Assembly: GCA_001805895.1 (NCBI GenBank)
Contig: MHHD01000008.1
Span: 1-26,007, forward strand
Direction of reading: 5' to 3'
DNA: 26,007 nucleotides
Origin: Omnitrophica WOR_2 bacterium RIFCSPLOWO2_12_FULL_51_8
GTDB lineage: Bacteria > Omnitrophota > Gorgyraeia > Gygaellales > Profunditerraquicolaceae
Shown: positions 3,446-17,455 of the stretch, in pieces
Layout of the letters: each line of letters opens with the position of its first letter
How positions within the stretch are numbered: the first letter of the stretch is position 1
Made by a program: the position numbers and the translations under genes
The notes under the pieces: generated by a model
Database searches by the model: none
What the model was told of the DNA's origin: nothing
What the model saw: only the letters and a program-made list of their open reading frames with translations

Positions 3446-5188
3446 CTAGCCCATAGGCTTTATTTCTTCCAAGATCTTTTTTACAAACTCCCCTGCTGCT
3501 ATCGTGCCCAAATCGCCTTTTCCTTTTTTGCGCACAGAAACCGTTCCTTGTTTCTCCTCGCGCTCGCCCACCACTAAACAATAAGGAATTTTTTCCAACT
3601 CGGCGAGGCGGATTCTCTTATTTAAAGTTTCATTACGGCTATCCACCTCGGCCCGGATTAAATTATCCCGTAAAACCCCCTGAATATCCACTGCGTATTT
3701 TACGAAGGCATCTGCCACAGGGATCACCACTGCCTGCACCGGCGCCAGCCACAACGGCAGCTCACCGTTATAATGCTCCAATAGCGCCCCGATAAACCTT
3801 TCTAAGCTGCCGAGCAGTACCCGATGCAGCATAATTGGCTGCTGCTTACTGCCATCGGCAGCGATATAGGCCAGATCAAATCTTTTGGGCAGGGCAAAAT
3901 CGCACTGGATCGTCGCGCACTGCCACGACCTTTTCAAGGCGTCCTTTAATTTGACGTCGATCTTTGGCCCGTAAAAGGCGCCTTCGCCGGCATTCACCGC
4001 ATAAGCGAGGTTTTTTTCCTTGAGCGCATCCTCCAGCGCTGCGGTCGCACGCTGCCAGTCGTCCGCAGTGCCGATATATTTTTCCGGCCGGGTGCTTAAT
4101 TCTATACCGACCTCCGTAAAACCAAACGCACGCATGACCTCAAAAACAAAATCTATAATCCCTTTTATCTCTTGGCCCAGCTGCTCAGGCAAACAAAAGA
4201 TGTGCGCGTCATCCTGGGTAAAGCCGCGCACGCGCAGCAGGCCATGCAGCACCCCGGCCTTTTCATTCCGGTAGACCGTGCCCAGCTCAAAGAGCCGCAG
4301 CGGCAAATCCTTGTAACTTCTGGTCTGCGATCTGTAAATCAGGATGTGGCCCGGGCAGTTCATCGGCTTTAAAACGAATTCCTTGCCTTCGATATCCAAG
4401 GCGTACATATTCTCGCGGTAATATTCATAGTGGCCGCTCTTCTTCCAGAGCCCGGCCTGCATAAGATGCGGGGTAATCACCATCTGGTAGCCGCGTTTTA
4501 AGTGTTCCTCTTTCTCGTAATCCTCGATCAACGTGCGCAGCAACGCGCCCTTAGGGCGGTAAAACACCAGGCCCGCCCCCGCCTCTTCATGATAAATATC
4601 AAAGAACCCTAATTGCGGCCCCAGTTTCCGGTGGTCGCGCTTTTTTGCCTCTTCCAGATTTTTTAAATATTCCTCTAATTCTTTTTTGCCGGCAAAGGCC
4701 GTGCCGTAAATCCGCTGCAGCATGGGGTTAGTTTCTATCCCGTGCCAGTAGGCCCCGGCCACGGACAATAATTTAAAGGCCTTGATTTCTCCGGTAGAGC
4801 GGATATGCGGGCCGCGGCAAAGGTCCACAAAATCGCTGCCCGTTTTATAAATGGATACTCTCTCATCAGGAATTGCCTTGATTAAATCTATCTTGTAATC
4901 TTCGTTTAATTGCCGAAATAATTCCAGGGCCTCTTGCTTAGTTAATTCTTCCCGCACAAACGGCTTATCCGCCTGAATAATCTCGCGCATCTTCGCTTCT
5001 ACCTTGGCCAGATCCTCGTCGGAAAATGGCTCCTTTTTGCCTGCACTGAGCGCAGCCGAAGTGTCGAAGTCATAATAAAATCCATCTTCGATAGAAGGGC
5101 CAATGCCCAGCTTGGCTTCAGACCATAAGCCCTTTACTGCTTCAGCCATCACATGCGCACAGGAATGTCGTAAGATATCTAAGTCCAC
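3446..5188 (-). CDS. thrS: Threonine--tRNA ligase (short form without N-terminal TGS domain)
   Basis: RHSCAH editing motif, DLCRGPH, KPMNCP, RVRGFTQDDAH, FYGPKID, QCDF; GTG start. Confidence 0.98.
   Translation of the reverse strand: MDLDILRHSCAHVMAEAVKGLWSEAKLGIGPSIEDGFYYDFDTSAALSAGKKEPFSDEDLAKVEAKMREIIQADKPFVREELTKQEALELFRQLNEDYKIDLIKAIPDERVSIYKTGSDFVDLCRGPHIRSTGEIKAFKLLSVAGAYWHGIETNPMLQRIYGTAFAGKKELEEYLKNLEEAKKRDHRKLGPQLGFFDIYHEEAGAGLVFYRPKGALLRTLIEDYEKEEHLKRGYQMVITPHLMQAGLWKKSGHYEYYRENMYALDIEGKEFVLKPMNCPGHILIYRSQTRSYKDLPLRLFELGTVYRNEKAGVLHGLLRVRGFTQDDAHIFCLPEQLGQEIKGIIDFVFEVMRAFGFTEVGIELSTRPEKYIGTADDWQRATAALEDALKEKNLAYAVNAGEGAFYGPKIDVKLKDALKRSWQCATIQCDFALPKRFDLAYIAADGSKQQPIMLHRVLLGSLERFIGALLEHYNGELPLWLAPVQAVVIPVADAFVKYAVDIQGVLRDNLIRAEVDSRNETLNKRIRLAELEKIPYCLVVGEREEKQGTVSVRKKGKGDLGTIAAGEFVKKILEEIKPMG
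5039..5062 (-). repeat. 24-bp REP-like insertion in frame inside thrS (encodes TSAALSAG)
   Basis: Minus-strand ACTTCGGCTGCGCTCAGTGCAGGC; its first 20 nt match intergenic 15003-15022 at 15/20; it interrupts YYDFD/KKEPF. Confidence 0.65.
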
Positions 5189-5602: not shown

Positions 5603-5935
5603 CTAATGCTGCCGGCGCGCGGCATAGGCAAAAGGCAAAAAATACCTCCTCCAGGATGCGTCGCTGGAGCCAAACTGATTTGCGCCGGCAAAAAAATCCA
5701 CCAGCGCCTCGCGCATCCGGGCAATCTCTTTGCGCCGGGCTAAGCCCCTTGTGCTGTCTAAAGTTAAATCCGTAAGTTCCAGCGCCCGCGCAAACGCCTG
5801 CCGGCTGTAATCAGAATCCTGCTTTGCCTTCCAGTTCAAAGCCCGCTCTACTTCGCTGCCAATGTTGGCCATCTGTTCCATAAACGGCATTTTGCCCCAT
5901 CTTCCCGCGGCAAGCTCCTTATGCTGCTGGCTCAT
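5603..5935 (-). CDS. Conserved hypothetical helical protein (110 aa), partner of DUF5674 protein
   Basis: GRW...MEQMANIGSEVERA motif; 4-nt overlap with the upstream ORF. Confidence 0.75.
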   Translation of the reverse strand: MSQQHKELAAGRWGKMPFMEQMANIGSEVERALNWKAKQDSDYSRQAFARALELTDLTLDSTRGLARRKEIARMREALVDFFAGANQFGSSDASWRRYFLPFAYAARRQH

Positions 5936-6457: not shown

Positions 6458-6994
6458 TCAAGTCCTTTCCAATATTTTCCGGTAAAGTTCTTCTGTGCCG
6501 TACTGTAAACAAAGGGTTTTAAAGGCGCCTGTCTGGGCGTCCACTTTATTAACTCTGATCAATTCTATAATATCCGCCAGATCTTTATACTCGCGGATGC
6601 CAGGATTATACTTGATGGCATGCAACTTCAGTGCGATTAAATGATTAAGGCACGGCACGAGAAATTTTTGACCCGCGATATTAGCCTCTTTTGCCTCCTT
6701 AATAATTTTATCTAACGTCTCCCTATCCACAAACATGAAATCAATGTCCCAAAAAAATGGCTTTTCTGCCGACAGCCGGACAAATACCTCCTGCCCATAA
6801 TCCTGCTTAAACCCCTCTTTTTCTAACCGGCTGGCTATTTTGTCAAAATCGTCTTTGGTGATTAAGAAATCTACATCTGCAGTCTGGCGTGTTACCTTAT
6901 GGAAATTCACTGCAAAACCACCGATTAAAACATAAGGTATTTTTTCTTTGCCGCAGACAGCAGAAATTAGATGAAACACGCTTGGGTATTTCAT
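6458..6994 (-). CDS. Nucleotidyltransferase (Pol-beta superfamily, DUF6036/AbiEii-like)
   Basis: IGGFAV...RQTADVD and LIALKLHA...KDLADI motifs. Confidence 0.82.
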   Translation of the reverse strand: MKYPSVFHLISAVCGKEKIPYVLIGGFAVNFHKVTRQTADVDFLITKDDFDKIASRLEKEGFKQDYGQEVFVRLSAEKPFFWDIDFMFVDRETLDKIIKEAKEANIAGQKFLVPCLNHLIALKLHAIKYNPGIREYKDLADIIELIRVNKVDAQTGAFKTLCLQYGTEELYRKILERT

Positions 6995-7050
6995 TTTGCC
7001 AAATTATTTATCTCAACGCCCCCTGCCTCATTTTTAATCCCTTCCGCAAA

Positions 7051-7085
7051 ATCCCAGGCCTTTAGGCCGAGGGGGCTCCACTTCA
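7051..7085. other. Small hairpin resembling an IS200/IS605-type end remnant
   Basis: ATCCCAGGCC-TTTA-GGCCGAGGG. Resemblance to IS605 subterminal hairpins is from recall; no transposase nearby. Confidence 0.3.
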
Positions 7086-7131
7086 TCGTTGTTTAATGTT
7101 GCGGTGATGATTTTCTAGAAGATCCATTTTC

Positions 7132-7207
7132 AGGGTTCGCGTCCACGACTACTCAAGGAAAAACTTACCTTACTTCTCTTCTGACGGTTCACCTAAAAAT
7201 CTGGCGG
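7132..7207. mobile_element. L element copy 4 (att-like cassette end)
   Basis: AGGGTTCGCGTCCAC-39 nt-GGTTCACCTAAAAATCTGGCGG; same 39-nt spacing as copies at 12577 and 13878. Confidence 0.85.
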
Positions 7208-7208
7208 C

Positions 7209-7361
7209 TTACTTCACCGCGTCTGGCGAAATGCGGACGGTTTTGCCGTTTTCCCATACCGCAAGCGGGCGGCCCGTCTTCTTATGCCGCTCCACAACTT
7301 GCCGCACCGCTTTTTTTAACGCCGCCTCTGCTTTATCCTGCAAAGACATCCGTTTTTTCAT
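7209..7361 (-). CDS. 50-aa basic partner of zeta-like ATPase
   Basis: MKKRMSLQDKAEAALKKAVRQVVERHKKTGRPLAVWENGKTVRISPDAVK*. ATGA overlap with the upstream gene; its stop abuts the L element. Confidence 0.78.
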   Translation of the reverse strand: MKKRMSLQDKAEAALKKAVRQVVERHKKTGRPLAVWENGKTVRISPDAVK

Positions 7362-7939
7362 TGATGCCTCGCGCTTTTTTGAACCGCCTCAAATAATTCC
7401 TTGTTAACAATCTCTCTATGCCAGTTCTTTCTTTTCGCAATCAATATAGGCCTTGCCTTTGAATTATCAAACAACATCCAAGAATCAAGCAAGGGATCAT
7501 ATAGATCGAAGAAATTATTAATTCCGCGGGTAAAACGCCTGCGCACATCTTCAGCAGGAACATAATGCCCGCCTTCTACAACCCTGTCTTTAATACGCGC
7601 GATTGCGAGTCCGGGGCTGGGGATCCAAAGAAAGAATAGATGCAGCGCGTAGCCTTTCTTTTTGAACTCCTCTAGCAAGCTTACGTAGGATTTACCGGAT
7701 AAAGTAGTTTCAAATGCAAAATCAACGCCCCGTTTCGCATATTCGTGTATTTGCTGCAATACGAGTTTGCCGGCTTTAATGGCGGCAGCGCGAGGCTCAA
7801 ACGGAGCTAATCCTTGAGCGATCAGGTCGGCATTGACAAAATTCGGACAATTCACGTAATCAGGTAAAAACATCCTGGCAAACGTCGTCTTGCCCGATCC
7901 GTTAGGTCCCGCAATAATGTAAACTGCCTTGTTATTCAT
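7358..7939 (-). CDS. Zeta-toxin-like P-loop ATPase/kinase
   Basis: IAGPNGSGKTT Walker A, VNADLIA, FAFETTLSG, RV..GGH.VP..DVRRR. Confidence 0.85.
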   Translation of the reverse strand: MNNKAVYIIAGPNGSGKTTFARMFLPDYVNCPNFVNADLIAQGLAPFEPRAAAIKAGKLVLQQIHEYAKRGVDFAFETTLSGKSYVSLLEEFKKKGYALHLFFLWIPSPGLAIARIKDRVVEGGHYVPAEDVRRRFTRGINNFFDLYDPLLDSWMLFDNSKARPILIAKRKNWHREIVNKELFEAVQKSARHQ

Positions 7940-7995
7940 AAGCGCCTTTACCGCTCAAGGAACTTTACCAGATATAATCGTAGAACTCGCCTGAG

Positions 7996-8151
7996 CGTCA
8001 ACAATGAGGGGTAGTCGTGGGGCAGGCTAACCCCCTACAACCCTTTGAGATACCGCTACTTATAAAAATTTATAAGAAACGCGGTGTGGGCTGGCAAATT
8101 TCTCTGGGCGAACCCATCAACCCTACCCTCCGCAAGAAAACGTGCCATTAA
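7996..8151. mobile_element. R element copy 3 (diverged)
   Basis: CGTCAACAATGA + GGGGTAGTCGTGG...CTTATAAAAATTTATAAG...GCGAACCCATC; colinear with copies at 9772 and 12650. Confidence 0.8.
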
Positions 8152-8164
8152 AAGCAAAGAATGA

Positions 8165-8362
8165 TTATCCAGTAGTAGATGGGATAAATCCAAATATCTT
8201 TGTCTTATCCTTTATTACGATTTTCTTTACCACAGCAACAATTTTAGTCCCATCGTTCTCAAAATATTCCAATTTATCCCCTGAAGATACTGCTCCACCG
8301 CTCACCGTCCCTTCAAAAACAATGCCCCTGCCATGAATCCCAAAAATATCCTTTACCTCCAT
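8165..8362 (-). CDS. 65-aa protein resembling EF-Tu domain II beta-barrel, possibly truncated
   Basis: EVKDIFGIHGRGIVFEGTVSGGAVSSGDKLE resembles the V.DVFSI.GRGTVVTG.V..G.V..GD.V pattern. Confidence 0.55.
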   Translation of the reverse strand: MEVKDIFGIHGRGIVFEGTVSGGAVSSGDKLEYFENDGTKIVAVVKKIVIKDKTKIFGFIPSTTG

Positions 8363-8384
8363 CCTGCTATTAATAGCATCCTAC

Positions 8385-8444
8385 AGGGTTCGCGTCCACT
8401 ACAACTCACGCCCAAAATAGCTATGGCTCTCGTCCGTCAACCTC
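8385..8444. mobile_element. L element copy 3 (right half degenerate)
   Basis: Exact AGGGTTCGCGTCCAC at 8385-8399; the right half is reduced to CGTCAACCT. Confidence 0.7.
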
Positions 8445-8455
8445 GCCGGAGAAGG

Positions 8456-9589
8456 TCATAACCATTGATCGAGATGCGTAACACAATCAACAAACGGCGC
8501 TATCTCAACGCCTCGGTCATGCCACCGGCGATGTCCGAGATAAAGCAGACAAGTCTTTGCTTCCTTAAAATCCTCGCGGAATCGCCGTAAGGCGCCGAAA
8601 TCATCGGGGCGGATCTTCTCAGCCATTTTGATTTCAAAAGCGCGCAAACCTCGTTCGCCATACAGCACAAAATCCACCTCATCCGCCGTGGCTGTCCGCC
8701 AGTAATGCAAGCGATACCCCAAATTTTTGTAGTCGTTGATAGCGCGCGCTTCCTGCAAAAAAAGGGTCTCGAGCGCCGCTCCGTGTATTTCTTCCGGGGC
8801 ATCCAGTGACCCGCGCGGGCGGATAGCCTGAAATACTCCGGTGTCGAAGTAATAAAACTTGGGGTGCGTAATGAGTCTCCGTTTGACGCGCTTGGTAAAA
8901 ACCGGCAGGCGGATGGCAATCAATAAATCCTCAAGAATGCTGAAATAGTCTTCGACGACTTTGGCCGACACGGCGCACTCGCGGGCCACGGCCGCCATAT
9001 TGAGCAATCCGCCTTGGGAAAAGCTGGCGGCTTCCAGAAAACGGCTGAAGGCGCTGAGGTTACGGGCGAATCCTTCTTGTTGGACCTCTTCGCGCAGATA
9101 GGTGGCAGCGTAACTTTTCAGATAACCTTCTGGCTTGGCGCTCGTACAGGCCAGCGGCAGACCACCGTAACGAAGGGCGCGTTTGAGATCAAAGTCCTTG
9201 CCCAATTCCAACGCTGTCAGGGGATGCATATGATACGTCAACGCACGACCTGCCAGCAAGTTAACACCGCGGCGGCGTAACTTGCGCGCGCTTGATCCGG
9301 TCAGCGCGAATTGTAAGCGCCGCGACTCAATTAAACGGTGCGCTTCATTCAGCAATTCCGGCACGCGTTGGACCTCATCTAGAACTACCCAGCCCTTGTA
9401 ATCCTGGGGAATTCTTTCTCCCAACCGTGTCGGTTCAGCCAGCAGCTCGCTATAGATCCGGTAATCCAGCAAATCAAAAAAGAGCGCTCTGGGAAATTGA
9501 TCGTGCAGCCAGGCGGTCTTGCCTACTCCGCGGGGCCCGAACAGAAAGAAGCTCTGCCGCCTAGGGGGTTTGAGCAATCGTGCATACAT
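8456..9589 (-). CDS. AAA_14 ATPase with C-terminal DUF4143-like domain
   Basis: FGPRGVGKT, LDEVQ, LTGSSAR, LAGRA, KFYYFDTG, EVDFV...FEIK. Confidence 0.88.
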   Translation of the reverse strand: MYARLLKPPRRQSFFLFGPRGVGKTAWLHDQFPRALFFDLLDYRIYSELLAEPTRLGERIPQDYKGWVVLDEVQRVPELLNEAHRLIESRRLQFALTGSSARKLRRRGVNLLAGRALTYHMHPLTALELGKDFDLKRALRYGGLPLACTSAKPEGYLKSYAATYLREEVQQEGFARNLSAFSRFLEAASFSQGGLLNMAAVARECAVSAKVVEDYFSILEDLLIAIRLPVFTKRVKRRLITHPKFYYFDTGVFQAIRPRGSLDAPEEIHGAALETLFLQEARAINDYKNLGYRLHYWRTATADEVDFVLYGERGLRAFEIKMAEKIRPDDFGALRRFREDFKEAKTCLLYLGHRRWHDRGVEIAPFVDCVTHLDQWL

Positions 9590-9771
9590 AAGTCTTTTTT
9601 ATCATAAAAAAATGACTTGTCAAGTAATTTTTACATAATCTATCAAAGGCATTCTTTTCTTCTATTGCCCCATTTTTAACAAACTACTGCATTAATTTTG
9701 ACTGCTGTCAAATTTACTCGCAAGTAAATTTCCCTGTCCACGCAACGCCCCACGCCCTCTACTTGGCCACT

Positions 9772-9960
9772 CGTCAACAATGACGGGTAGTCGTGGACGA
9801 AAGTCGAACCCTGCAACCCATTGAGATACCGTTACTTATAAAAATTCATAAGAAACATGGTGTGGGCTGGCTAATCGCCCTAGACGAACCCATCTTCAAT
9901 AAACCTACAAAAACCAAAGAACCGACAAACCCAGAGCCATACTGCGACTATGTTATTTAG
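9772..9960. mobile_element. R element copy 2
   Basis: CGTCAACAATGA + CGGGTAGTCGTGGACG-n5-CGAACCCT...; 177 nt colinear without gaps with 12650-12826. Confidence 0.85.
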
Positions 9961-9986
9961 CTTGACCTTTAATCTAGGTTAGAAAT

Positions 9987-10988
9987 TTATTTATACAACC
10001 TCAACTCCATCTGACTACTCTCAATCTTTACTGCGTCACAACCATCCTTTAGTAAATCACGATAAAGCTCCTTTATGACATCCTTTTCAGTGCCTTCGTC
10101 AACGAACCTCAACGCAGAAGCAGCAAGATATGTCCTGTCTTTCTCAAACGCAATCCACTTGCGGTCAAGGACCTCGGCAGCCTCGCCAGACGTATTAGAA
10201 CCAGCAAAAAAATCCAGCACCAAATCCCCAGGGGCAGTCAAAAACTTAATGAAAAACTCAGGAAGCTGCCTTGGAAACCTTGCAGGATGAGGATCGGCAC
10301 CGACAAGCTTGCAAAAACGCAAATACTTAGAATTGCTCTCCGAATTGGAAATCTGCAAAAGATTAGAAGGAATAGCACCCCCATTCCCGTTAGGAATCCC
10401 AAAACTCTTAGAAATATTATGCCCAGAAGGACGCTCCTTCGGTGTATAAAACTTCTCGCTATTCTTCAACAACTCCTTCATGCGCTCAGAATACGGAACC
10501 AACACCCTCGAAACATCGGCATTAGGAAACTCCGACTTAGAAAACCACCAGACAGTATTCACCGAATCCTTAGCCCTAATCTTCCTCTTATTCACCCACT
10601 CAATCGGCGATGGCAGCTTAGACGGGTTATGCCAAAAAAACTCCTCAGCCAAGAAAAAGCCAAGCTCGTCACAAAAACGCACAAGTACCCTGAAATTATA
10701 AAGTGACCTAGTCGGCCTGCCCTTCTCGTAAGCACCACCCAAATCCAAAACAAAACTCCCATCTTCCCTCAACACCCTAAAGACTTTCCTGCCAAAAGCC
10801 ATCAACCAATCAACATAATCCTCCTGAGACTCATTCCCATACTCCTTCTTGCGCTGCAAGGCAAAGGGCGGGGAAGTTACCACCAGATTAACGCTGTCCG
10901 CAGCAAGGCAATCAAGAAGCTCCAGCGAATCACCCACAAACGCCCTGCCATGCTTCGTCTTATATACTGGAACAGGCAAATTACTCAT
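9987..10988 (-). CDS. Site-specific DNA methyltransferase, beta class, probably N4-cytosine, M.PvuII-like
   Basis: TSPPFALQRKKEYGN (motif IV), NPSKLPSPIEWVNKRKIR, HPARFP, DFFAGSNT (motif I). ATG at 10988 preferred over the track's TTG at 11015. Confidence 0.92.
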   Translation of the reverse strand: MSNLPVPVYKTKHGRAFVGDSLELLDCLAADSVNLVVTSPPFALQRKKEYGNESQEDYVDWLMAFGRKVFRVLREDGSFVLDLGGAYEKGRPTRSLYNFRVLVRFCDELGFFLAEEFFWHNPSKLPSPIEWVNKRKIRAKDSVNTVWWFSKSEFPNADVSRVLVPYSERMKELLKNSEKFYTPKERPSGHNISKSFGIPNGNGGAIPSNLLQISNSESNSKYLRFCKLVGADPHPARFPRQLPEFFIKFLTAPGDLVLDFFAGSNTSGEAAEVLDRKWIAFEKDRTYLAASALRFVDEGTEKDVIKELYRDLLKDGCDAVKIESSQMELRLYK

Positions 10989-11022
10989 GACAAAAAAATC
11001 CTCTCCTCTAACCAAGCCGGGC

Positions 11023-12477
11023 TCAATATATTTCGAGGTTGCCGACCCAACTCGAAAGAATCTTCCACAAAACAGTCACGGCAAAATAAACCTCTTTATC
11101 CTTATCCTTCAAGTCTTCAATCTCGGCGACAAGCTTCTCCTGCTTCTGCGTGCCAACAACCCAGGCAACCCACTTCCTCGCCCCATCATCAGCCATGACA
11201 GAAAGTAAATCCTTGACAGAGAAATTTCCGCTCTTGCTTAAAGCCCATGAAATACCGGCTCTCACATCCTCGCTCCCCTTCGGAAAATACTTGATGATTT
11301 CCTTGCCGAACAAGCCGGAAAGCCTAAACAAAGCACGGGCAGACTCAGACCGCACACCCAAATCAATATCATCAAAGACAGAAACCAAGGCGTCAAGCGC
11401 AACCTTGTTCTTAAGCTCGCCCAAAGCCCAGGCAGCACCAGCCCTGATCTCTGAATGCTGAGCCTTATCAAGCAAGACTTCGATTAGAAGTCTGCATGAG
11501 ACATCGCTACAAATTTCTCCAAGAATAATCACACACTCCAAACGATTCTCCAAATATTCATCAGCCAAAACAGACTTAAAGAAATCTACGCTGTCACTAA
11601 AGCCCATCTTCAAAAGGCTAGCCGCAGCCTCCAAACGGATATATATGTGGTCTCTTGCGTCGCCAGTCTTCTTGACCAGGGCTCCATGAATATCCGCCCC
11701 CTTAAAAAACGACAACGCTTTTGCTGCGCCGTAGCGATCACTCAAAGAAGCGCTCCTAATCATCCTAACGTAATCCCTGGCTTCCATGCCCTTACCACAG
11801 TCAAAACTCGTCGAAACAGGAACGACGCTTGCCAAAATCTGATCTTCAACAAAAACGTCCCCAGCCTTCACAAGAGGCTTAAGTCTGATACCCTTCTTCT
11901 CCAAGGCAAGACTGATAAGCCTGCCATCACCTCTACGCTTTAATTTAAGCCGTTCCTTGCCAACCTCCACGACTTCGCCTGCGCAACTGGCAACTGCGCT
12001 AGGCCAGGTAATCCTTGCCTCAAAGCCCTCCTCAGTGCCCTTCGGTTTCTCCCAAAAAACCTTCTTGTCAACAACAGCAGCCCTCAAAGGCTTAGCCGAC
12101 ACATACTGAACAAACCCGGAAGCAGCCCAATCAACAGGCTCAGTCCCAATCTTGCTACACTTCACAAAAGCAACCATGTCGCCATCATCCAAACCAAAAT
12201 CCCATCCTCGCTCAGGACTGACAACGCTATGCGACATCGTCACAAGCAGCTTAGTCTTAGCCCTCGACTCAACCCTCCTGCCACAGCCAACGCATAAGAC
12301 ATCAGGAACTCGCACCCTCTTAATTTTGATTTCCTTCCAAATCTTAAAGCTCATACTGCCACGTTCAAGCTCAACAGGACGATGCCCAAGCCGCTTCAAA
12401 TCCTCAAAAACCCTCCTCGTGCCAGTAGCGCCAATAGAAATCTTTTCTAAAAAACTCACATCCGTCTTAAAAGCCAT
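11023..12477 (-). CDS. Putative restriction endonuclease: N-terminal PD-(D/E)xK-like region plus C-terminal HEAT repeats
   Basis: VPDVLC...VESRAK in the N terminus; repeated helical units (RYGAAKAL, RLEAAASL, RAGAAWALGEL, RSESARAL); directly upstream of the methylase. Confidence 0.6.
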   Translation of the reverse strand: MAFKTDVSFLEKISIGATGTRRVFEDLKRLGHRPVELERGSMSFKIWKEIKIKRVRVPDVLCVGCGRRVESRAKTKLLVTMSHSVVSPERGWDFGLDDGDMVAFVKCSKIGTEPVDWAASGFVQYVSAKPLRAAVVDKKVFWEKPKGTEEGFEARITWPSAVASCAGEVVEVGKERLKLKRRGDGRLISLALEKKGIRLKPLVKAGDVFVEDQILASVVPVSTSFDCGKGMEARDYVRMIRSASLSDRYGAAKALSFFKGADIHGALVKKTGDARDHIYIRLEAAASLLKMGFSDSVDFFKSVLADEYLENRLECVIILGEICSDVSCRLLIEVLLDKAQHSEIRAGAAWALGELKNKVALDALVSVFDDIDLGVRSESARALFRLSGLFGKEIIKYFPKGSEDVRAGISWALSKSGNFSVKDLLSVMADDGARKWVAWVVGTQKQEKLVAEIEDLKDKDKEVYFAVTVLWKILSSWVGNLEIY

Positions 12478-12576
12478 AACAAAAAAATCCTTTCTCTAAA
12501 AAGAAACGATGACCTTTTCAAAAAGTTTTCGTACTCAAGTTTTTATTTACACTCATAAGCATCTCTTTTCCAGCTC

Positions 12577-12826
12577 AGGGTTCGCGTCCACAATTACTGT
12601 GCGCAAAATTGCTTTTGCTTCTCGACGGATGGTTCACCTAAAAATCTGGCGGGTAGTCGTGGACGGTAGGCGAACCCTACAACCCCTTGAAATACCGTTA
12701 CTTATAAAAATTTATAAGAAACGCGGTATGGGTTGGCTCATCGCCCTAGACGAACCCATCTTCAATAAACCTGAAAAACCTAAAGAACCAAAACAGTTAG
12801 AGCCTAACTATAATTATGCCATCTAA
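12577..12826. mobile_element. Complete L|R junction (attP-like composite site)
   Basis: L copy 2 (12577-12652) fused to R copy 1 (12653-12826); GGTTCACCT (12631) and AGGCGAACC (12668) are inverted about the GT at 12653-12654. Confidence 0.85.
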
Positions 12827-12838
12827 CAGCATTTTGCC

Positions 12839-13279
12839 TTAAAAAAGTTCCTTAGAATTAACGTTATAATTGATCATCAGCCAAGAATCGCCATACTTCT
12901 TCAAAACAAAAGAATCTGTAGATTCGCCTTTTTCATGGATTACCGTATACTGAACGCTAAAATATACTCCATCTGGGGCATAGTTAAGTCGCCAAGCGCC
13001 CTTCTTCCGCTCCTTAGCAATACCTAATTTCCCCCAAACGCCGTTCATTATCTTATCAAAACTTTCGCGGGGGCCACTCTTTTTGAATTTTTCATCAGCC
13101 ATCGAATCAAACATGTAGCCAAAATCTTGTTTATTGTAATGGTCATAGAAGCTTGCAATGAATTTTTCAACAGATGGCGTGAATTTACTGGCATTTAAAA
13201 AGGCGAAGCCACCAAAAACAACAAATAAAATTATTATTACCAAAAACGTAATTCCTAGACCAATAAAGAATTTCTTCAT
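12839..13279 (-). CDS. Membrane-anchored hypothetical protein (146 aa)
   Basis: N-terminal hydrophobic helix, then a soluble alpha/beta domain ending in SFVLKKYGDSWLMINYNV; GGAGG RBS. Confidence 0.75.
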   Translation of the reverse strand: MKKFFIGLGITFLVIIILFVVFGGFAFLNASKFTPSVEKFIASFYDHYNKQDFGYMFDSMADEKFKKSGPRESFDKIMNGVWGKLGIAKERKKGAWRLNYAPDGVYFSVQYTVIHEKGESTDSFVLKKYGDSWLMINYNVNSKELF

Positions 13280-13292
13280 TCTTGCACCTCCT

Positions 13293-13859
13293 CTATTTAT
13301 TCCGCAGATCGTTTACTATTTGGTAAACTTTTTCTGCATCTTTAATATCGTAAAAGGTCGGAACATCCTTCCCATAGAATGACGCAAAAAAATCCATACC
13401 GGTATTTTCATACATGCCCACCATAAATGAAGGGTTGCCAAATTTAACGGCACCTATTCCATTCGATCGAACGCTCTTGTTAATACACGGCAAAGTATTA
13501 ATGTATGCCGCTTGGATGTTTTCACCAAATAAGCTGGTCACAATTAATACTCGCTTATCAGTTACGGCATACCATGTTCTTTGCTTCTTCCACTTTTTAT
13601 AAAAAAATCTCCCAAAGATAGAATACAGGCCAATTAATACAAATGGGATACCAAATAACGCAAAAAATATTGGCGCGCCTTGCCCTGCCTTGTCCTTCAT
13701 AAAAAGGACAGAGGACTCCCAAAATATGGCGAACCCTCCCCACAATAAACTAAAAGGCACAAGAAAAACGTCAGACGCAGAAAACAGGATATTTGCTTCC
13801 GGCTGGCCTTTCCATAAAATTGATTCATCTTTTAGCAATTGCTTTTGCAGAACATCCAT
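13293..13859 (-). CDS. Two-TM membrane protein with bacterial PH-like C-terminal domain (188 aa)
   Basis: E.ILWKGQP, two TM helices, YAVTDKRVLI. ATG at 13859 preferred because the track's GTG at 13892 lies inside the L element. Confidence 0.75.
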   Translation of the reverse strand: MDVLQKQLLKDESILWKGQPEANILFSASDVFLVPFSLLWGGFAIFWESSVLFMKDKAGQGAPIFFALFGIPFVLIGLYSIFGRFFYKKWKKQRTWYAVTDKRVLIVTSLFGENIQAAYINTLPCINKSVRSNGIGAVKFGNPSFMVGMYENTGMDFFASFYGKDVPTFYDIKDAEKVYQIVNDLRNK

Positions 13860-13877
13860 ATAATTAACCCTTTCTCT

Positions 13878-13955
13878 AGGGTTCGCGTCCACGACAACCT
13901 AAGCAAAAAACGCAAGCGGCTGTCGTCGGACGGTTCACCTCAAAAACTGGCGGGT
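13878..13955. mobile_element. L element copy 1, joined to a tRNA-like half-site
   Basis: AGGGTTCGCGTCCAC-39 nt-GGTTCACCTCAAAAACTGGCGGGT. Confidence 0.85.
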
Positions 13956-14001
13956 TATTAGGGATTCGAACCCTCTCGCCTGCGCCAAAGATCTTTTCAA
14001 A
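13948..14001 (-). pseudogene. tRNA-like 3' fragment (T arm, acceptor strand, CCA) directly downstream of tRNA-Leu
   Basis: Minus strand: TTTGAAA-AGATC-14 nt-GAGGGTTCGAATCCCTA-ATAACCC-G-CCA; no matching 5' half. Confidence 0.55.
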
Positions 14002-14085
14002 TGCCGGGGGAGGGATTTGAACCCTCACACTCTTACGAGCGGCGGATTTTAAGTCCGCATTGTCTGCCAGTTCCAACACCCCGGC
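14002..14085 (-). tRNA. tRNA-Leu(TAA), CCA not encoded
   Basis: GCCGGGG/CCCCGGC acceptor stem, GCGGA-CTTAAAA-TCCGC anticodon arm, long variable arm, GAGGGTTCAAATCCCTC T arm. Confidence 0.97.
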
Positions 14086-14092
14086 AAAAATA

Positions 14093-14656
14093 CTAATATT
14101 TTACTGTTAAAAGCCTATCCAGATCGCCGGCGATACGTGGATTTTGGGCCTCGGCAGATATCTCCTGGGCCCAGTTTTTAAGATACCCTATATCCAGTCG
14201 CCCTTTATGCCGCATAATTATTTTTTCCGCATCCGCCAGATCCTGAGGCCTGCCCGGAATTATCTTTAAGAGCACCATATCCTCCGGCGTGGGAAAAAAT
14301 GCATTGGTATTATAAAGCCTGAAGGTTTTTTTTCTTTTAAATGCCTGGCGCTCCAGTTCAATGGAGGCAATAATAAAATCAACGTGGAATGCCCCATATT
14401 GTATCTGGAATGTACCTGTGGCCAGGGCCTTCTGCCGGCACTCTTGAGCATTAAATCTAAACCCAGCTTTTTTTGCCTTACTTAAAAAAACGGGTATTTG
14501 CTCTGCTTCTAACAGTATATCGATATCTACATCTCCCGTAGCCCTTGGTTCTCCTAAAAGCCCTACCGCGATTCCTCCGATAACTATATATTCGTATCTT
14601 TCTTTATTTAAAAAACCCGCTACCTTTTTATAAACATCTTCCACTAAGATTTTCAT
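14093..14656 (-). CDS. Nucleotidyltransferase (DUF6036-like)
   Basis: IGGIAV...PRATGDVD, PEDMVLLK...RPQDLAD. ATG at 14656 overlaps the upstream TGA (ATGA). Confidence 0.85.
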   Translation of the reverse strand: MKILVEDVYKKVAGFLNKERYEYIVIGGIAVGLLGEPRATGDVDIDILLEAEQIPVFLSKAKKAGFRFNAQECRQKALATGTFQIQYGAFHVDFIIASIELERQAFKRKKTFRLYNTNAFFPTPEDMVLLKIIPGRPQDLADAEKIIMRHKGRLDIGYLKNWAQEISAEAQNPRIAGDLDRLLTVKY

Positions 14657-14874
14657 GCCTTTTTCTGCAGGAGCATCTTCAGGCAAACAGGGTTATCTTC
14701 AAAAAAATTCTTCCGTAATTCCCAGATAAGCGCGGACGAAAGCAGGCGCTCTTCGATTGCTATGGCTTCTTTCATAGACAAATTCTTCAGCCGCCGCCTC
14801 TTCTCCTGCTCCCAAGGCTTAAATTTATTTTTGTCGAACAGCTTCTTATTATTTAGCTTGCTCATTTCAGCCAT
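14653..14874 (-). CDS. 73-aa basic partner protein upstream of the nucleotidyltransferase
   Basis: Coupled by ATGA overlap; small charged helical sequence. Confidence 0.7.
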   Translation of the reverse strand: MAEMSKLNNKKLFDKNKFKPWEQEKRRRLKNLSMKEAIAIEERLLSSALIWELRKNFFEDNPVCLKMLLQKKA

Positions 14875-14971
14875 TCCATCACCTGTCCGACATTATCATG
14901 CAAGATACTTTACGTACGGTTTTTCACCCGCTTGAATTGCCTTTAGCCTTCTCTCATTAAAACAATACTCT

Positions 14972-15048
14972 GTCCACTGCGAGAAGCCGCAGGCGCCGAA
15001 GCCCTTCGATTACGCTCAGGGCCTCGGCACTTAGTGCCTCGCAATGAC
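14972..15048. repeat. Nested REP-like element
   Basis: Outer arms GTCCACTGCGAG / CTCGCAATGAC; inner CCCTTCGATTACGCTCAGGGC (15002-15022). Confidence 0.6.
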
Positions 15049-15095
15049 GATAGAATTATGCACACTGCTCAAATAATTAGCGCGAAACCGAGAAA

Positions 15096-16235
15096 TTATT
15101 GCTGTAAAATAGCAACGCAGTCAGCAAGACTTACATACTTAATAATGTTGCGGCCGGCCTTCCTGGAATATGGCTGCTTGATGTCATGCGAGACTACCAG
15201 CACACTCGCCCGAGGATAATGATTAAGGAATATCTCGATATTCTTGCTATCCGCGCGGCCTGCAGCCCATTTGCACTCAACGGCAATAGGCTGCCTGCCC
15301 CGCGGCTTTAAAATAAAATCCATCTCGTGGCCGTGTTTATCGCGCCAGTAGTGGATATCTCTAGTCTGTAACTGCCCTTGAATCTCGTTCAAAACAAAAT
15401 GCTCCCACAATGTCCCCATGTCTTCTTGGCGTAACCGATCCCAGCCCCGGTAGTAACAAAAAAAACCGGTATCAAAGGTATAGACCTTGGGAGCCGCGAT
15501 AATTTCCGCAGCCTGATGGGTATGAAACGGCCTGACCACATGCATCACATAGGTCGCCTCTAACACGTTTAAATAATTGGTGACGGTAGTCCGGCTCACT
15601 TCGCAGGGCGAGGCAAAGGAAGACGCTTCAAACATCCCTCCGCTTTGCACCATCAAAAGCTCAAAAAACTTCTGGAAGGAATGCCGCCGCTCCAGACGGA
15701 AAAGCTCCTGAATATCTTTGGCCCAATATGAATCCGCCCACTCCTGAAATTCTTTTTCAGGAAAATGCTTTGCCATGAATAAAGCGGGTAGCCCCCCCCT
15801 TAAAAACCGATGTCTGATATCCTGATGGCCAAAGTCTTTCAGGTCTTCTGTCAGCATCGGGCATAACCATAACTCCCGCTTGCGATCGGTCAACGTATCC
15901 CTGAATTTTGAGGAAACCCCCAATGTGGAAGAGCCCGTAGCCGCAATCTGAATATCCGGATAATGATCGGCTGCTATTTTAAGAAGCTCGGAGGGATTAT
16001 CCAGCCGGTGTATTTCATCAAGAATAATCCGCTGCTTCCTAAAACCATCAAGAAATCCTTCCGGGCTTGCCATCATTTGGCGCACGCGCGGCAGTTCGCA
16101 GTCAAAATAAACCGCGTCCTTAATAGCTTTACTGAGAAACGTCTTGCCCGCCCGCCGGACGCCGGAAATCCATATAATGGATTTCTCTTGCCATAATTGC
16201 TCAATCTTGTTTAACCAAAAATGCCTGATGTACAT
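15096..16235 (-). CDS. AAA_14 ATPase with DUF4143-like domain (second copy type)
   Basis: SGVRRAGKT, LDEIH, ATGSS, KVYTFDTG, EMDFI...VECK. ATG at 16235 preferred over 16295. Confidence 0.88.
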   Translation of the reverse strand: MYIRHFWLNKIEQLWQEKSIIWISGVRRAGKTFLSKAIKDAVYFDCELPRVRQMMASPEGFLDGFRKQRIILDEIHRLDNPSELLKIAADHYPDIQIAATGSSTLGVSSKFRDTLTDRKRELWLCPMLTEDLKDFGHQDIRHRFLRGGLPALFMAKHFPEKEFQEWADSYWAKDIQELFRLERRHSFQKFFELLMVQSGGMFEASSFASPCEVSRTTVTNYLNVLEATYVMHVVRPFHTHQAAEIIAAPKVYTFDTGFFCYYRGWDRLRQEDMGTLWEHFVLNEIQGQLQTRDIHYWRDKHGHEMDFILKPRGRQPIAVECKWAAGRADSKNIEIFLNHYPRASVLVVSHDIKQPYSRKAGRNIIKYVSLADCVAILQQ

Positions 16236-16241
16236 AGCCAG

Positions 16242-16270
16242 AGCATACCATGCAATTTTTCTAAATGCAA
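16242..16270 (-). promoter_or_regulatory. Sigma70-type promoter, probably leaderless, for the ATPase
   Basis: TTGCAT-17 nt-TATGCT, ending 6 nt before the ATG at 16235. Confidence 0.45.
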
Positions 16271-16307
16271 GTATAATTGCGTTTAGTAAACCCAAACGCC
16301 ATTAAAG

Positions 16308-17080: not shown

Positions 17081-17122
17081 CAAGCGCATTAAATATTCTT
17101 ACATTATATAACAGCGAATATA

Positions 17123-17218
17123 CACAGATTGGCACAGATGAAAAGATGCAAGATGATCACAGATAACGTCAAACAATATCTGTGCTCATTTGTATCTTCT
17201 CATCTGCGATCATCTGTG
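17123..17218. repeat. CACAGAT/ATCTGTG hairpin element
   Basis: CACAGAT at 17123, 17133, 17158; ATCTG(T/C)G at 17178, 17202, 17212. Confidence 0.8.
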
Positions 17219-17298
17219 CAACAGGGTATGTAAATTTATTTATTTCGTTTAATATCCGCCTTTAACCTGCAACATAATTATTTGAGCAGTATGCATAA

Positions 17299-17455
17299 TC
17301 GGGTTTCGTTTATCGGTTAGCGGTTGCGGCTACGTATCGTCTATCGTAAATCGTCTAAAAGGGTTTTCGTTTAAGAAGACGACACACGAAACCGAAAACG
17401 ATTTACGATACATAGCCGAAGCCGAAACCGAAACCGTTTAAGACGATAGACGAAA
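17299..17455. repeat. TATCG/CGATA periodic hairpin element
   Basis: Exact 13-bp inverted pair 17342-17354/17398-17410 and 11-bp pair 17337-17347/17443-17453; tandem CCGAAA/GCCGAA units. Confidence 0.75.

What the first reader, a model, noticed from the sequence alone, without database searches (positions are those of the whole stretch)
7132..14001. Tandem array of recombinase-less cargo cassettes bounded by conserved L and R elements at a tRNA 3' end
Seen: four L copies (7132, 8385, 12577, 13878) share AGGGTTCGCGTCCAC. Three of them then have exactly 39 nt of variable sequence and GGTTCACCT(A/C)AAAA..TGGCGG. Three R copies (~8008, 9784, 12650) share GTAGTCGTGG...AACCC...CTTATAAAAATT(T/C)ATAAG...CGAACCCATC. 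They form R-cargo-L units of about 0.45 kb (EF-Tu-like ORF), 2.9 kb (RM pair) and 1.3 kb (two membrane genes); a fourth L borders the NTase operon. At 12653 one unit's L joins the next unit's R seamlessly, and the last L is fused to a tRNA-like end. No integrase gene is visible in the 26-kb window. Inference: non-autonomous elements serially integrated at one site by a recombinase acting in trans, an integron-like but non-attC platform stockpiling defence/TA-type genes.
Basis: partly seen in the sequence, partly recalled or inferred. Interest (0 to 1): 0.92.

Follow-up and report, generated by a model that had tools for sequence, protein, structure and literature searches.

The report
Integrase-less gene cassettes behind tRNA-Ser
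A stack of five or six small gene cassettes sits on the relic of a serine tRNA gene; they carry no recombinase but are bounded by the two arms of the attachment site of a phage-type large serine integrase, a gene-capture layout that looks like an integron and runs on different machinery.

Summary
The repeats are real: four L copies and three R copies, none expected by chance. In relatives, the L end (TGGCGG) abuts the 3' end of a tRNA-Ser gene. R abuts the hairpin flank seen at empty tRNA-Ser sites. L|R is the joined form. This gives a full attB/attP/attL/attR set that shares only CGG.

R is not just a site. It encodes a peptide under purifying selection, homologous to the N-terminus of a ParB-like HTH module fused to some large serine recombinases (LSRs).

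In relative G100, a ~44.5-kb prophage is bounded by the same R. At its other end an LSR gene has 3' codons (…RQQW) that run into antisense tRNA-Ser. Those codons recur, decayed, at window 7985-8009 and about 9767-9785.

It was not found in this 63%-complete genome.

Activity is inferred, and the array looks partly decayed. Cargo in relatives is mixed, not only defence genes.

This scan found the same cassette family before on other DNA (e1-999048), with no recombinase identified.

It is a new variant of a known kind: tandem non-autonomous att-bounded elements.

The parts
7131..7207 (+). L1: left arm, canonical type. It starts CAGGGTTCGCGTCCAC and ends GGTTCACCT..TGGCGG.
   Evidence: The GGTTCA motif lies 22 nt from the junction.
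7209..7939 (-). Cargo of cassette A: a zeta-toxin-like P-loop kinase (7358-7939) and an overlapping 50-aa ORF (7209-7361) downstream of it, a possible partner.
   Evidence: Pfam Zeta_toxin, E=2e-12. ORFs.
7985..8009 (+). L'a: short left arm of the second type (…TCGCCTGAGCGTCAACAATGA GGG). It is homologous to the last codons (…ERQQW) of the LSR gene of G100/G361. Here TGG has become TGA.
   Evidence: (19/20 identical to the G361 LSR end).
8010..8142 (+). R1: right arm, short class. It holds a P'-type half-site and then a + strand ORF (VVVGQANPLQPFEIPLLIKIYKKRGVGWQISLGEPI…stop).
8165..8362 (-). Cargo of cassette 1: a 65-aa ORF with no family match.
8384..8446 (+). L2: eroded left arm. It has the canonical start, and its end resembles the L' type (CGTCAACCTCGCCGG).
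8456..9589 (-). Cargo of cassette B: an AAA_14 + DUF4143 ATPase.
   Evidence: Pfam.
9767..9785 (+). L'b: decayed short left arm (ACTCGTCAACAATGACGG, reading …RQQ-stop).
9786..9959 (+). R2: right arm, long class. Its ORF ends …EPYCDYVI-stop.
9987..12477 (-). Cargo of cassette 2: an N6/N4 DNA methylase (9987-11015) and a HEAT-repeat protein (11023-12477).
   Evidence: Pfam.
12576..12652 (+). L3: canonical left arm, joined directly to R3.
   Evidence: The frame is open across the junction.
12653..12826 (+). R3: right arm, long class. Its ORF ends …EPNYNYAI-stop.
12839..13892 (-). Cargo of cassette 3: a DUF4019-like protein of 146 aa (12839-13279) and a 199-aa protein with no family (13293-13892; the real start is probably the ATG at about 13859).
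13877..13953 (+). L4: canonical left arm next to the tRNA relic.
13954..13992 (-). Relic of the target: variable arm, T arm, acceptor strand and CCA of a tRNA-Ser-like gene. The 5' half is missing and the acceptor is mutated. GAACC ends 19 nt from the junction, as in 20 tRNA-Ser junctions of relatives.
   Evidence: (16-nt identity to the T arm of G051 tRNA-Ser).

Best explanation
Window 7131-13992 is a tandem stack of five or six non-autonomous integrative cassettes, each with 1-2 genes. All cargo reads in the direction of the target tRNA. The stack sits at the extreme 3' end of what was once a tRNA-Ser gene.

**Structure of a cassette.** Each cassette keeps only the two arms of the attachment site of a temperate-phage large serine recombinase (LSR).
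- R is the P' arm. It also carries the first ~45-60 codons of the ParB-like HTH module that follows attP in the phage.
- L' is the P arm, which is the last ~8-10 codons of the LSR gene (…RQQW).
- L is a longer 77-nt variant of that arm.

**Inferred mechanism.** An LSR supplied in trans by a resident or infecting phage of this family would recombine a circular cassette (junction L|R or L'|R) with the tRNA-Ser end. The crossover lies inside the shared CGG. The cassette lands between the tRNA and its former downstream hairpin.

**What is shown.** The repeats, the att quartet, the coding nature of R, and the physical link of both arm types to LSR genes and to a prophage in relatives.

**What is inferred.** That the LSR moves the cassettes, that stacking is serial, and that cargo is read through from the tRNA side. 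This particular array is probably old and partly inert, given the truncated tRNA, eroded L2, and TGG changed to TGA in both L' arms.
For: 1. **Non-chance repeats.**
2. **Spread.** The same arms occur in 11 of 61 relatives by DNA and 45 of 234 genomes of the order by peptide.
3. **Target.** The L end abuts tRNA-Ser(gga, tga, cga or gct), depending on the genome.
4. **Occupied versus empty sites.**
   - The G051 Ser(cga)-Ser(tga) spacer is ~750 bp and empty. In G038 the same spacer is 3.76 kb and holds R-cargo-L.
   - The G042 empty Ser(gga) flank (…GAAAATGAAAACGG|AGAGG) matches the flank before the distal R in the same genome (…GAAATGAAAACGG|GTAGTC).
5. **Short core.** attB and attP share only CGG. 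This fits a 2-bp serine-recombinase crossover and not a 6-8-bp tyrosine-recombinase overlap.
6. **Autonomous element in G100.**
   - An LSR open frame of 583 aa is 71% identical to the G361 LSR, which has Resolvase, Recombinase and Zn_ribbon_recom domains.
   - It ends …CGTCAACAATGGCGG|AGAGGCAGGGATTCGAACC, which is antisense tRNA-Ser(gga).
   - About 44.5 kb away on the same strand lies an R whose first 43 nt equal those of R3, preceded by …AAAACGG.
   - The interval encodes terminase, portal, major head and tail proteins.
7. **G361.** The LSR frame runs through …RQQW|R into an R-type peptide, 601 aa in all.
8. **Match to the window.** Window 7987-8006 is 19/20 identical to that LSR end.
9. 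**Half-site registers.**
   - The GAACC motif ends 24 nt from the junction in about 30 R copies, and 19 nt from it in 21 of 21 tRNA-Ser junctions.
   - GGTTCG lies at 27 nt in L'.
   - This is the 5-bp attP/attB shift described for LSRs (PMC3783163).
10. **Cassette regularity.** There are 18 complete cassettes in 13 genomes, with cargo of 266-2681 bp. 23 of 25 ORFs are co-oriented with the tRNA.
Against: - No LSR of the linked subfamily is in G000. Its two LSRs (C75, C18) are only 27-28% identical to it.
- G038 and G121 carry arrays but have no Recombinase-domain hit.
- Logan contigs of four metagenome runs show no joint at any L or R edge. Contigs hide rare forms.
- No L copy in 234 genomes of the order is preceded by a long ORF. 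The canonical 77-nt L is therefore tied to an LSR only through its shared ends with L'.
- Canonical LSRs do not recombine attP with attL or attR (PMC3783163). How stacks grow is therefore unexplained.
- Cassettes A and B have no recognisable R at their left ends.
Confidence: 0.72

Rival explanations
1. The units are stumps of serially integrated prophages, reduced in place. Each was cut down by deletion to its att-proximal moron genes. They were never mobile as cassettes.
For: - The arms derive from a prophage att site.
- In attP-form contigs, defence genes sit right after R on the opposite strand, like prophage-end morons.
- The arms in the window are decayed and no helper LSR was found.
- No joints were seen.
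Against: - The left boundary of L (…AGGGTTCGCGTCCAC) and the start of R are the same to the base in about 25 copies. These flank unrelated cargo in at least 13 genomes and at four tRNA-Ser isoacceptors.
- Independent deletions would give ragged ends.
- Up to four R copies stand in one array (G121).
- Minimal L' arms without an LSR recur.
Confidence: 0.15
2. This is a tyrosine-recombinase system: an integron/CALIN array, a tRNA island of the Islander type, or Xer-dependent (IMEX or pdif-like) modules.
For: - The small, co-oriented cassettes look promoterless.
- L start and R start are inverted copies of one word.
- Xer-like recombinases are present in every genome checked.
Against: - attB and attP share only CGG.
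- The arms show no GTTRRRY-type core and no dif-like 28-mer (read).
- The only tyrosine recombinases found are two ~290-300-aa Xer-like genes on other contigs.
- The arms are homologous to an LSR gene end.
Confidence: 0.04
3. L and R are structured RNA or regulatory repeats (tRNA-linked terminators or processing signals) that spread by duplication, not att sites.
For: - L+R folds better than shuffles (z = -2.0 and -3.0).
- A small hairpin in L shows compensatory change, CCCTCC/GGAGGG to CCTTCC/GGAAGG.
- L supplies the CCA of the tRNA.
Against: - There is no Rfam family.
- The palindrome in the window's R is not kept in relatives.
- R varies mostly at third codon positions (1919/1333/2827).
- The occupied/empty comparisons show inserted DNA.
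Confidence: 0.05
4. These are TIR-bounded non-autonomous transposons (MITE or mobile insertion cassettes), with L start and R start as terminal inverted repeats.
For: L start and R start form a 20-25-nt inverted repeat. The 105-nt L3 plus R-start unit looks MITE-like.
Against: - There are no target-site duplications.
- Insertion is always at the same base of tRNA-Ser.
- The conserved R body lies outside such TIRs.
- No copies exist elsewhere in the genome.
Confidence: 0.03

Closest known systems
Dehalococcoides ssrA-specific genomic islands with the LSR DsiB (McMurdie et al. 2011, PMC3146451)
   Same: - Tandem islands sit at the 3' end of a small stable-RNA gene.
- The integrase is a large serine recombinase whose gene overlaps attL. 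Its stop codon lies beyond the junction, in the neighbouring island or the RNA gene.
- Some islands lack the integration module and were likened to cis-mobilizable elements.
   Different: - Their target is the T loop of tmRNA, with a 20-bp direct repeat. Here the target is the last bases of tRNA-Ser, with a 3-bp core.
- Their islands are tens of kb with a six-gene integration module. Here cassettes are 0.3-2.9 kb with no recombination gene.
- Here the post-junction reading frame (R) is conserved at the protein level.
SCCmec, pseudo-SCC elements and SCC composite islands (CcrAB large serine recombinases); from my own knowledge, also discussed in PMC3146451
   Same: Recombinase-less cassettes flanked by the integration-site sequences stack in tandem with recombinase-bearing ones at one chromosomal site. 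They are moved in trans by an LSR.
   Different: - The target is the 3' end of a protein gene (rlmH/orfX).
- The elements are kb to tens of kb.
- No coding right arm is known, and there is no tRNA mimicry in the arms.
Chromosomal integrons and CALIN arrays (IntI, attI, attC)
   Same: The cassettes are small, hold one to a few genes, are co-oriented and stand in a row at one site. They carry accessory, TA and defence genes. Many arrays stand without a nearby integrase.
   Different: - That system uses a tyrosine recombinase acting on folded single-stranded attC hairpins with a G|TT crossover.
- Here there is no IntI and no attC.
- The arms here are the two halves of a double-stranded LSR attP, and the target is a tRNA end.
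Phage large serine integrases (A118/LI, Bxb1, phiC31) and their att sites (Rutherford et al. 2013, PMC3783163)
   Same: - attP is an imperfect ~50-bp inverted repeat.
- The distal motif lies 5 bp nearer the centre in attB than in attP.
- The identical core is tiny.
- The autonomous relative is a prophage.
   Different: - Those enzymes are strictly attP x attB and do not build stacks.
- Their attP lies outside the int ORF. Here it lies inside the 3' part of the ORF.
- Here derived cassettes without int are common.
Cis-mobilizable elements and tandem accretion at ICE att sites (ICESt1/ICESt3 family; review PMC5704250, seen only in the listing, otherwise from my knowledge)
   Same: The elements are flanked by attL/attR and lack recombination genes. 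They accumulate next to an autonomous element at a conserved gene end.
   Different: Those use tyrosine integrases, have long identical att cores, and are larger elements.

Membership tests
LSR (large serine recombinase) integrative element / its non-autonomous derivative | An LSR gene (Resolvase + Recombinase + zinc ribbon) is physically joined to the att arms. | tested here: inconclusive
   Met in relatives. In G100 the LSR-L'|tRNA-Ser junction has R 44.5 kb away. In G361 the LSR frame runs into R. Not met in the window or in the G000 assembly.
LSR integrative element | attP is an imperfect inverted repeat of about 50 bp around a central dinucleotide. | tested here: met
   In L'|R, GGTTCGCCT lies 25-27 nt left of the junction, and its complement ends 24 nt right of it.
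LSR integrative element | attP and attB share only a very short identical core. | tested here: met
   Only CGG is common to L|R, L|tRNA, flank|R and flank|tRNA.
LSR integrative element | The distal (zinc-ribbon) motif is shifted 5 bp toward the centre in attB relative to attP. | tested here: met
   GAACC ends at 24 nt in about 30 R copies and at 19 nt in 21 of 21 tRNA-Ser halves. The rule comes from PMC3783163. This is sequence geometry only, and no binding data exist.
LSR integrative element | Conservative recombination is catalysed by the enzyme on these sites. | not testable with these tools
   This needs an in vivo or in vitro assay.
Integron / CALIN | An IntI-type tyrosine recombinase with attI lies at the head of the array. 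| tested here: not met
   No recombinase is in the window. Only Xer-like genes of 288-301 aa were found, on other contigs, in G000 and four array-bearing relatives.
Integron / CALIN | attC sites are present: a single-strand hairpin with paired R''/L''-L'/R' boxes and a GTTRRRY core. | tested here: not met
   The arms do not contain that core at the junction. No attC covariance model was available, so the check was done by eye only.
Integron / CALIN | Small, co-oriented cassettes of one to a few genes. | tested here: met
   18 cassettes hold 266-2681 bp of cargo, and 23 of 25 ORFs share one orientation.
tRNA-gene island of a tyrosine integrase (Islander type) | A displaced tRNA 3' fragment forms a direct repeat at the far end, and a tyrosine integrase lies next to the tRNA. 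| tested here: not met
   The repeated word is not tRNA sequence. The tRNA stays whole up to …CCG. No tyrosine integrase is adjacent.
Cis-mobilizable / pseudo-SCC type non-autonomous element | Flanked by both att arms of an autonomous element, with no recombinase of its own, at the same target. | tested here: met
   The R and L/L' arms equal the arms of the G100 prophage at tRNA-Ser. Cargo ORFs carry no recombinase domains.

The most novel reading that the evidence does not exclude
This may be a serine-integrase gene-capture platform that works like an integron.

**attB regeneration.** The 77-nt L arm carries its GGTTCA motif in the attB register, 21-22 nt from the junction, against 27 nt in the phage's own P arm. 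Each inserted cassette would then rebuild an attB-geometry site (L|tRNA, 21-22/19) at the tRNA. That site can accept the next element, which would explain the stacking.

**State-dependent integrase tail.** R encodes a beta-hairpin plus proline-rich peptide under purifying selection. It is fused to the integrase only when an L/L'|R junction stands behind the int gene, that is, in the excised circle or in a tandem array. The integrase would then exist in state-dependent isoforms that could set directionality.

**Expression.** Cargo would be expressed by read-through from the tRNA-Ser promoter.
Probability: 0.2. Interest if true: 0.85.

Novelty: new variant of a known kind. Interest (0 to 1): 0.66.

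Why it matters
- **Biology.** If the cassettes are moved by the phage integrase, Omnitrophota and relatives have a second, independent way to stack small accessory genes at one chromosomal address. It is built from a serine integrase and a tRNA end, not from IntI and attC.
- **Testable enzyme.** The work gives a concrete enzyme family (…RQQW LSRs), concrete ~50-bp sites, and natural minimal arms of 25-30 bp to test.
- **Engineering.** Serine integrases are widely used for genome engineering. A natural arm that restores an attB-like site after each insertion, and an integrase whose C-terminus changes with integration state, would both be useful and mechanistically informative.
- **Annotation.** The result explains the many 50-120-aa 'orphan' ORFs and ~150-aa HTH proteins of this family: 260 hits at E ≤ 0.001 among the 1.84 billion cluster representatives searched, and 111 of 401 genomes sampled in the phylum.

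Tried and rejected
- **Rfam, permissive thresholds.** Only the three tRNAs and chance hits were found. No family matches L or R.
- **Exact 15-mers of L and R in IMG/VR.** 52 loci came back. None aligns beyond the seed, so they are chance matches.
- **Own-genome search.** No copies lie outside this contig.
- **The two LSRs of G000.**
  - The C75 LSR reads into tRNA-Gln.
  - The C18 LSR is a truncated gene next to tRNA-Leu, with an L-like tail.
  - Both are only 27-28% identical to the LSR linked to these arms. They are not proposed as the helper.
- **Metagenome runs.** Only Logan contigs at about 5x depth were available. They show no joints at L or R edges and no alternative array. Higher summed depth over R (about 25 against 5) shows only that R-like DNA is more abundant in the samples. 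This is inconclusive, not negative.
- **Promoter/terminator scan of 6900-14200.** Counts equal those in shuffles. The TTGACG inside both L' arms, 16-18 nt before a -10-like hexamer upstream of cargo A and B, is noted but not claimed.
- **HMMER search of 1.84 billion proteins with the R/HTH profile.** The best 150 hits (of 260) contain no full-length LSR. The LSR link came instead from six-frame genome searches.
- **Fold of the full-length HTH relative.** The model is good (pLDDT 86.6), but matches to ParB/Noc/Spo0J DNA-binding domains are weak (E 0.04-0.5). It is therefore called 'ParB-like' only loosely.
- **Readings considered and dropped.**
  - Group I/II intron, ribozyme or tmRNA: no model hit.
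  - pdif/IMEX modules: no dif-like site.
  - MITE/MIC: no target duplication, and only a single target.

Full report
**1. Observation**

The window is a whole 26-kb contig of a 0.94-Mb, 63%-complete MAG.

- The word AGGGTTCGCGTCCAC stands at 7132, 8385, 12577 and 13878, with 0 expected in shuffles.
- Three L copies align over 78 nt, and all four over the first 25 nt.
- R stands at about 8010, 9786 and 12653. The copies align over 110-179 nt.
- L3 runs straight into R3 at 12652|12653.
- L4 is followed by a 39-nt tRNA 3' fragment just downstream of tRNA-Leu(taa).
- No other copy exists in the assembly.
- All cargo genes lie on the minus strand:
  - a zeta-toxin-like kinase with a 50-aa partner ORF
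  - a 65-aa ORF
  - an AAA_14/DUF4143 ATPase
  - an N6/N4 methylase with a HEAT-repeat protein
  - a DUF4019-like protein with an unassigned protein

Only some gene labels needed correction.

**2. What the ends touch**

The same L and R occur in 11 of 61 close relatives by DNA and in 45 of 234 genomes of the order by peptide. The layout is the same: R-cargo-L, often repeated.

In those genomes the TGGCGG end of L is the reverse complement of the …CCGCCA end of a tRNA-Ser gene. The isoacceptor is gga, tga, cga or gct depending on the genome. L is therefore not native to one tRNA.

Occupied and empty sites can be compared.
- The G051 Ser(cga)-Ser(tga) spacer is about 750 bp with no arm. In G038 it is 3.76 kb and holds R-cargo-L.
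- In G042 the flank of an empty tRNA-Ser(gga) is a hairpin ending …AAAACGG. It recurs in front of the distal R of the array at tRNA-Ser(cga).

This gives all four junction types:

| Junction | Role |
|---|---|
| flank\|tRNA | attB |
| L\|R | attP-like |
| L\|tRNA | one hybrid |
| flank\|R | the other hybrid |

The only letters common to all four at the junction are CGG.

The window's partner of L4 keeps the T arm of a tRNA-Ser, with 16 nt identical to that of G051. It has a mutated acceptor strand and no 5' half, so it is a relic.

**3. R is coding**

I aligned 23 gap-free R copies from about 20 genomes. Pairwise differences fall 1919/1333/2827 on codon positions 1/2/3 of one + strand frame. 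The frame is open in 21 of 23 copies.

- Examples are I-S-L-G-E-P-I written with many synonymous codons, and Arg as either CGT or AGA.
- In R2 and R3 the stop is kept (TAG and TAA) at the same codon. The same stop position is seen in several relatives.
- Where L and R are joined, the frame continues from L into R.
- Strong matches always lie in open frames of 121 aa or less.

**4. What the peptide belongs to**

Weak matches led to proteins of about 130-170 aa whose first ~60 residues align with R.

- A profile of both finds 260 proteins in 1.84 billion and 111 of 401 genomes sampled across the phylum.
- A model of a full-length member (pLDDT 86.6) has a disordered start, a beta-hairpin, a proline-rich linker and a helical domain. 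The helical domain resembles ParB/Noc/Spo0J DNA-binding domains only weakly.
- The window's R stops right after the linker.
- In several genomes this module is the C-terminal part of one long open frame with a large serine recombinase:
  - G373, 699 aa
  - G141, 724 aa
  - G070 and an NCBI assembly (GCA_000954095.1), both cut at the 5' end
  - G361, 601 aa, where the tail is the short R class seen in R1
- The G361 and G373 frames carry Resolvase, Recombinase and zinc-ribbon domains.

**5. The recombinase link**

The LSR frames end …(S/T)(P/E)ERQQW, written …CGTCAACAATGG, directly before the junction.

- The stretches in front of R1 and R2 in the window read …CGTCAACAATGA(G/C)GG. The first is 19/20 identical to the G361 gene end.
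It is made of the last codons of an LSR gene, with TGG decayed to TGA.
- The subfamily occurs in 16 of 234 genomes of the order.

G100 shows the complete autonomous element.
- The LSR frame ends …CAACAATGGCGG and runs into antisense tRNA-Ser(gga).
- About 44.5 kb away on the same strand lies an R whose first 43 nt equal those of R3, preceded by …AAAACGG.
- The interval encodes terminase, portal, major head, tail and replication proteins, so it is a prophage.

The same order (HTH/R, then 15-46 kb, then LSR, on one strand) is seen in G154, G042 contig C34 and G019. Other members of the subfamily sit on tRNA-Gln with an analogous arm.

LSR genes that read into antisense tRNA ends are common in this order. 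One is in the window's own genome, at tRNA-Gln.

**6. Site geometry**

| Half-site | Motif | Distance from junction | Copies |
|---|---|---|---|
| R | GAACC ends | 24 nt | about 30 |
| tRNA-Ser | GAACC ends | 19 nt | 21 of 21 |
| L' | GGTTCG begins | 27 nt | – |
| Canonical L end | GGTTCA begins | 21-22 nt | – |
| L start (reverse complement) | GAACC ends | 19 nt | – |

- L'|R is thus a ~50-bp imperfect palindrome. GGTTCGCCT lies on both sides.
- The tRNA half has the same motif 5 bp nearer the centre. This is the relation between attP and attB half-sites reported for the A118-type integrase and proposed for other LSRs (PMC3783163).
I place the crossover in CGG, not at GT, because CGG is what all junction types share.
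- The canonical L end has its motif in the attB-type register. L and L' share both extremities (CAGGGTTCGC… and …TGGCGG) and differ in the middle, which is 13 nt in L' and about 60 nt in L.
- I cannot say how L arose. I also cannot say whether its register lets L|tRNA act as a renewed attB. That is the novel case.

**7. Regularities of the cassettes**

- 18 complete R-cargo-L units from 13 genomes carry 266-2681 bp of cargo in 1-3 ORFs.
- 23 of 25 ORFs point the same way as the tRNA and against the R frame.
- Cargo in relatives is mixed. 5 of 23 are SAM methyltransferases. Others are SIMPL, TPR or unknown, and only the methyltransferases hit a PADLOC model.
- In attP-form contigs the genes after R are defence-type:
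  - an OLD-type TOPRIM ATPase with a UvrD helicase, and a restriction system
  - HNH and HATPase proteins
  - a HEPN and nucleotidyltransferase pair

**8. Reading**

The most economical account is that the cassettes are non-autonomous derivatives of temperate phages that integrate at tRNA-Ser by an LSR. They keep the two att arms and a few att-proximal genes, and they depend on a helper integrase. This is the logic of the following known systems:
- cis-mobilizable elements
- pseudo-SCC elements
- the integrase-less members of the Dehalococcoides ssrA islands, where the LSR gene dsiB also overlaps attL and where a state-dependent 3' end was already discussed (PMC3146451)

What differs here:
- the size of the units, which is integron-like
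- the target and the 3-bp core
- the minimal 25-30-bp left arm
- the conserved coding right arm
- the two left-arm registers

**9. Limits**

- No helper LSR is present in this genome. It is 63% complete, and mobile DNA is often unbinned.
- Two fairly complete relatives with arrays have no LSR hit.
- Public contigs show no joints.
- Canonical LSRs do not use attL or attR as targets, so the growth of stacks is not explained.
- In G231 the same 30-nt flank precedes both an R and the tRNA-Ser, which I cannot account for.
- Cassettes A and B lack an R.
- The window's array, with a broken tRNA, an eroded L2 and stop-mutated L' arms, is probably old.

**10. Earlier work of this scan**

A follow-up on another genome (e1-999048) reached the same picture: mobile cassettes behind tRNA-Ser in Omnitrophota, integron-like, recombinase unidentified. 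I reached the layout independently before seeing that note.

The phylum name rests on that note and on my recollection that GCA_000954095.1 is an Omnitrophota single-cell assembly. I could not confirm it in the paper library.

- the LSR and prophage link
- the second arm type
- the coding test of R
- the half-site registers

Noticed in passing
G000 contig C75 (locus L086) 974-2592: The window's own genome has a 530-aa large serine recombinase whose last ~16 codons are antisense to tRNA-Gln(ctg). This is an integrated element of another LSR subfamily, preceded by an HTH (XRE-like) gene.
   Followed up: partly
G000 contig C18 (locus L087) 1-1459: A truncated LSR (379 aa; homologues are 500-640 aa) lies downstream of tRNA-Leu(cag). 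Its odd tail (…KPIFGSPRRR-stop) and DNA (…AAGCCAATTTTTGGCTCTCCTCGACGGAG) resemble the middle of L variants. The contig ends 46 nt later, perhaps at a repeat.
   Followed up: partly
window 14093-16295: A second accessory islet lies between tRNA-Leu and tRNA-Cys. It holds a DUF6036 nucleotidyltransferase, a 73-aa ORF and another AAA_14/DUF4143 ATPase of the same family as the cargo of cassette B. No L or R arms are present.
   Followed up: no
window 7974-8001 and 9711-9740 (minus strand): The reverse complement of both L' arms supplies a TTGACG/TGGACA -35-like hexamer, 16-18 nt before a -10-like hexamer, just upstream of cargo A and B. Scan totals are not above chance.
   Followed up: partly
L copies in relatives (e.g. 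L028:1347-1422, L057:2334-2409): A small hairpin just before GGTTCAC changes on both sides (CCCTCC/GGAGGG to CCTTCC/GGAAGG). The same letters also read Pro-Pro-Arg-Arg in the L frame, so structure and coding cannot be separated.
   Followed up: partly
L078:7613-7685, L030:11421-11497, L051:1636-1694, L032:4346-4398: In some L variants the start reads AGTTCGAATCCCC…ACTCAAGCC. This looks like the T arm and acceptor strand of a tRNA on the opposite strand to tRNA-Ser. The origin of the L start is unresolved.
   Followed up: no
G231 contig C4 (locus L076) about 3840-3873 and 5677-5707: The same 30-nt flank (…GCCTCAATTTAACGTAGGCAAAAATGGCGG) stands both before an R and before tRNA-Ser(gga) in one array. 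It looks like a cassette whose left arm is a copy of the host flank. Unexplained.
   Followed up: no
loci L156, L157, L166 (G065, G186, G131): LSRs of 536-540 aa from yet another subfamily carry a related HTH module as a C-terminal domain in one gene, next to tRNA-His or tRNA-Glu.
   Followed up: no
window 12624-12924 and 6905-7506 in metagenome runs X1, X4: Summed contig depth is 3-5 times higher over R3 and over L1/cassette A than over the neighbouring cargo. Contigs also join R3 to other left flanks, so R-like DNA has more copies in the community.
   Followed up: partly
window 17135-17206; 1292-1333 and 17118-17159; 15055-15079 and 17275-17299: A hairpin repeat family (CACAGAT-type) gives a spurious mir-787 Rfam hit below threshold. 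It includes an 86%-identical direct repeat and a 96% inverted repeat around the tRNA-Cys/rpoZ region. It is unrelated to L/R.
   Followed up: no
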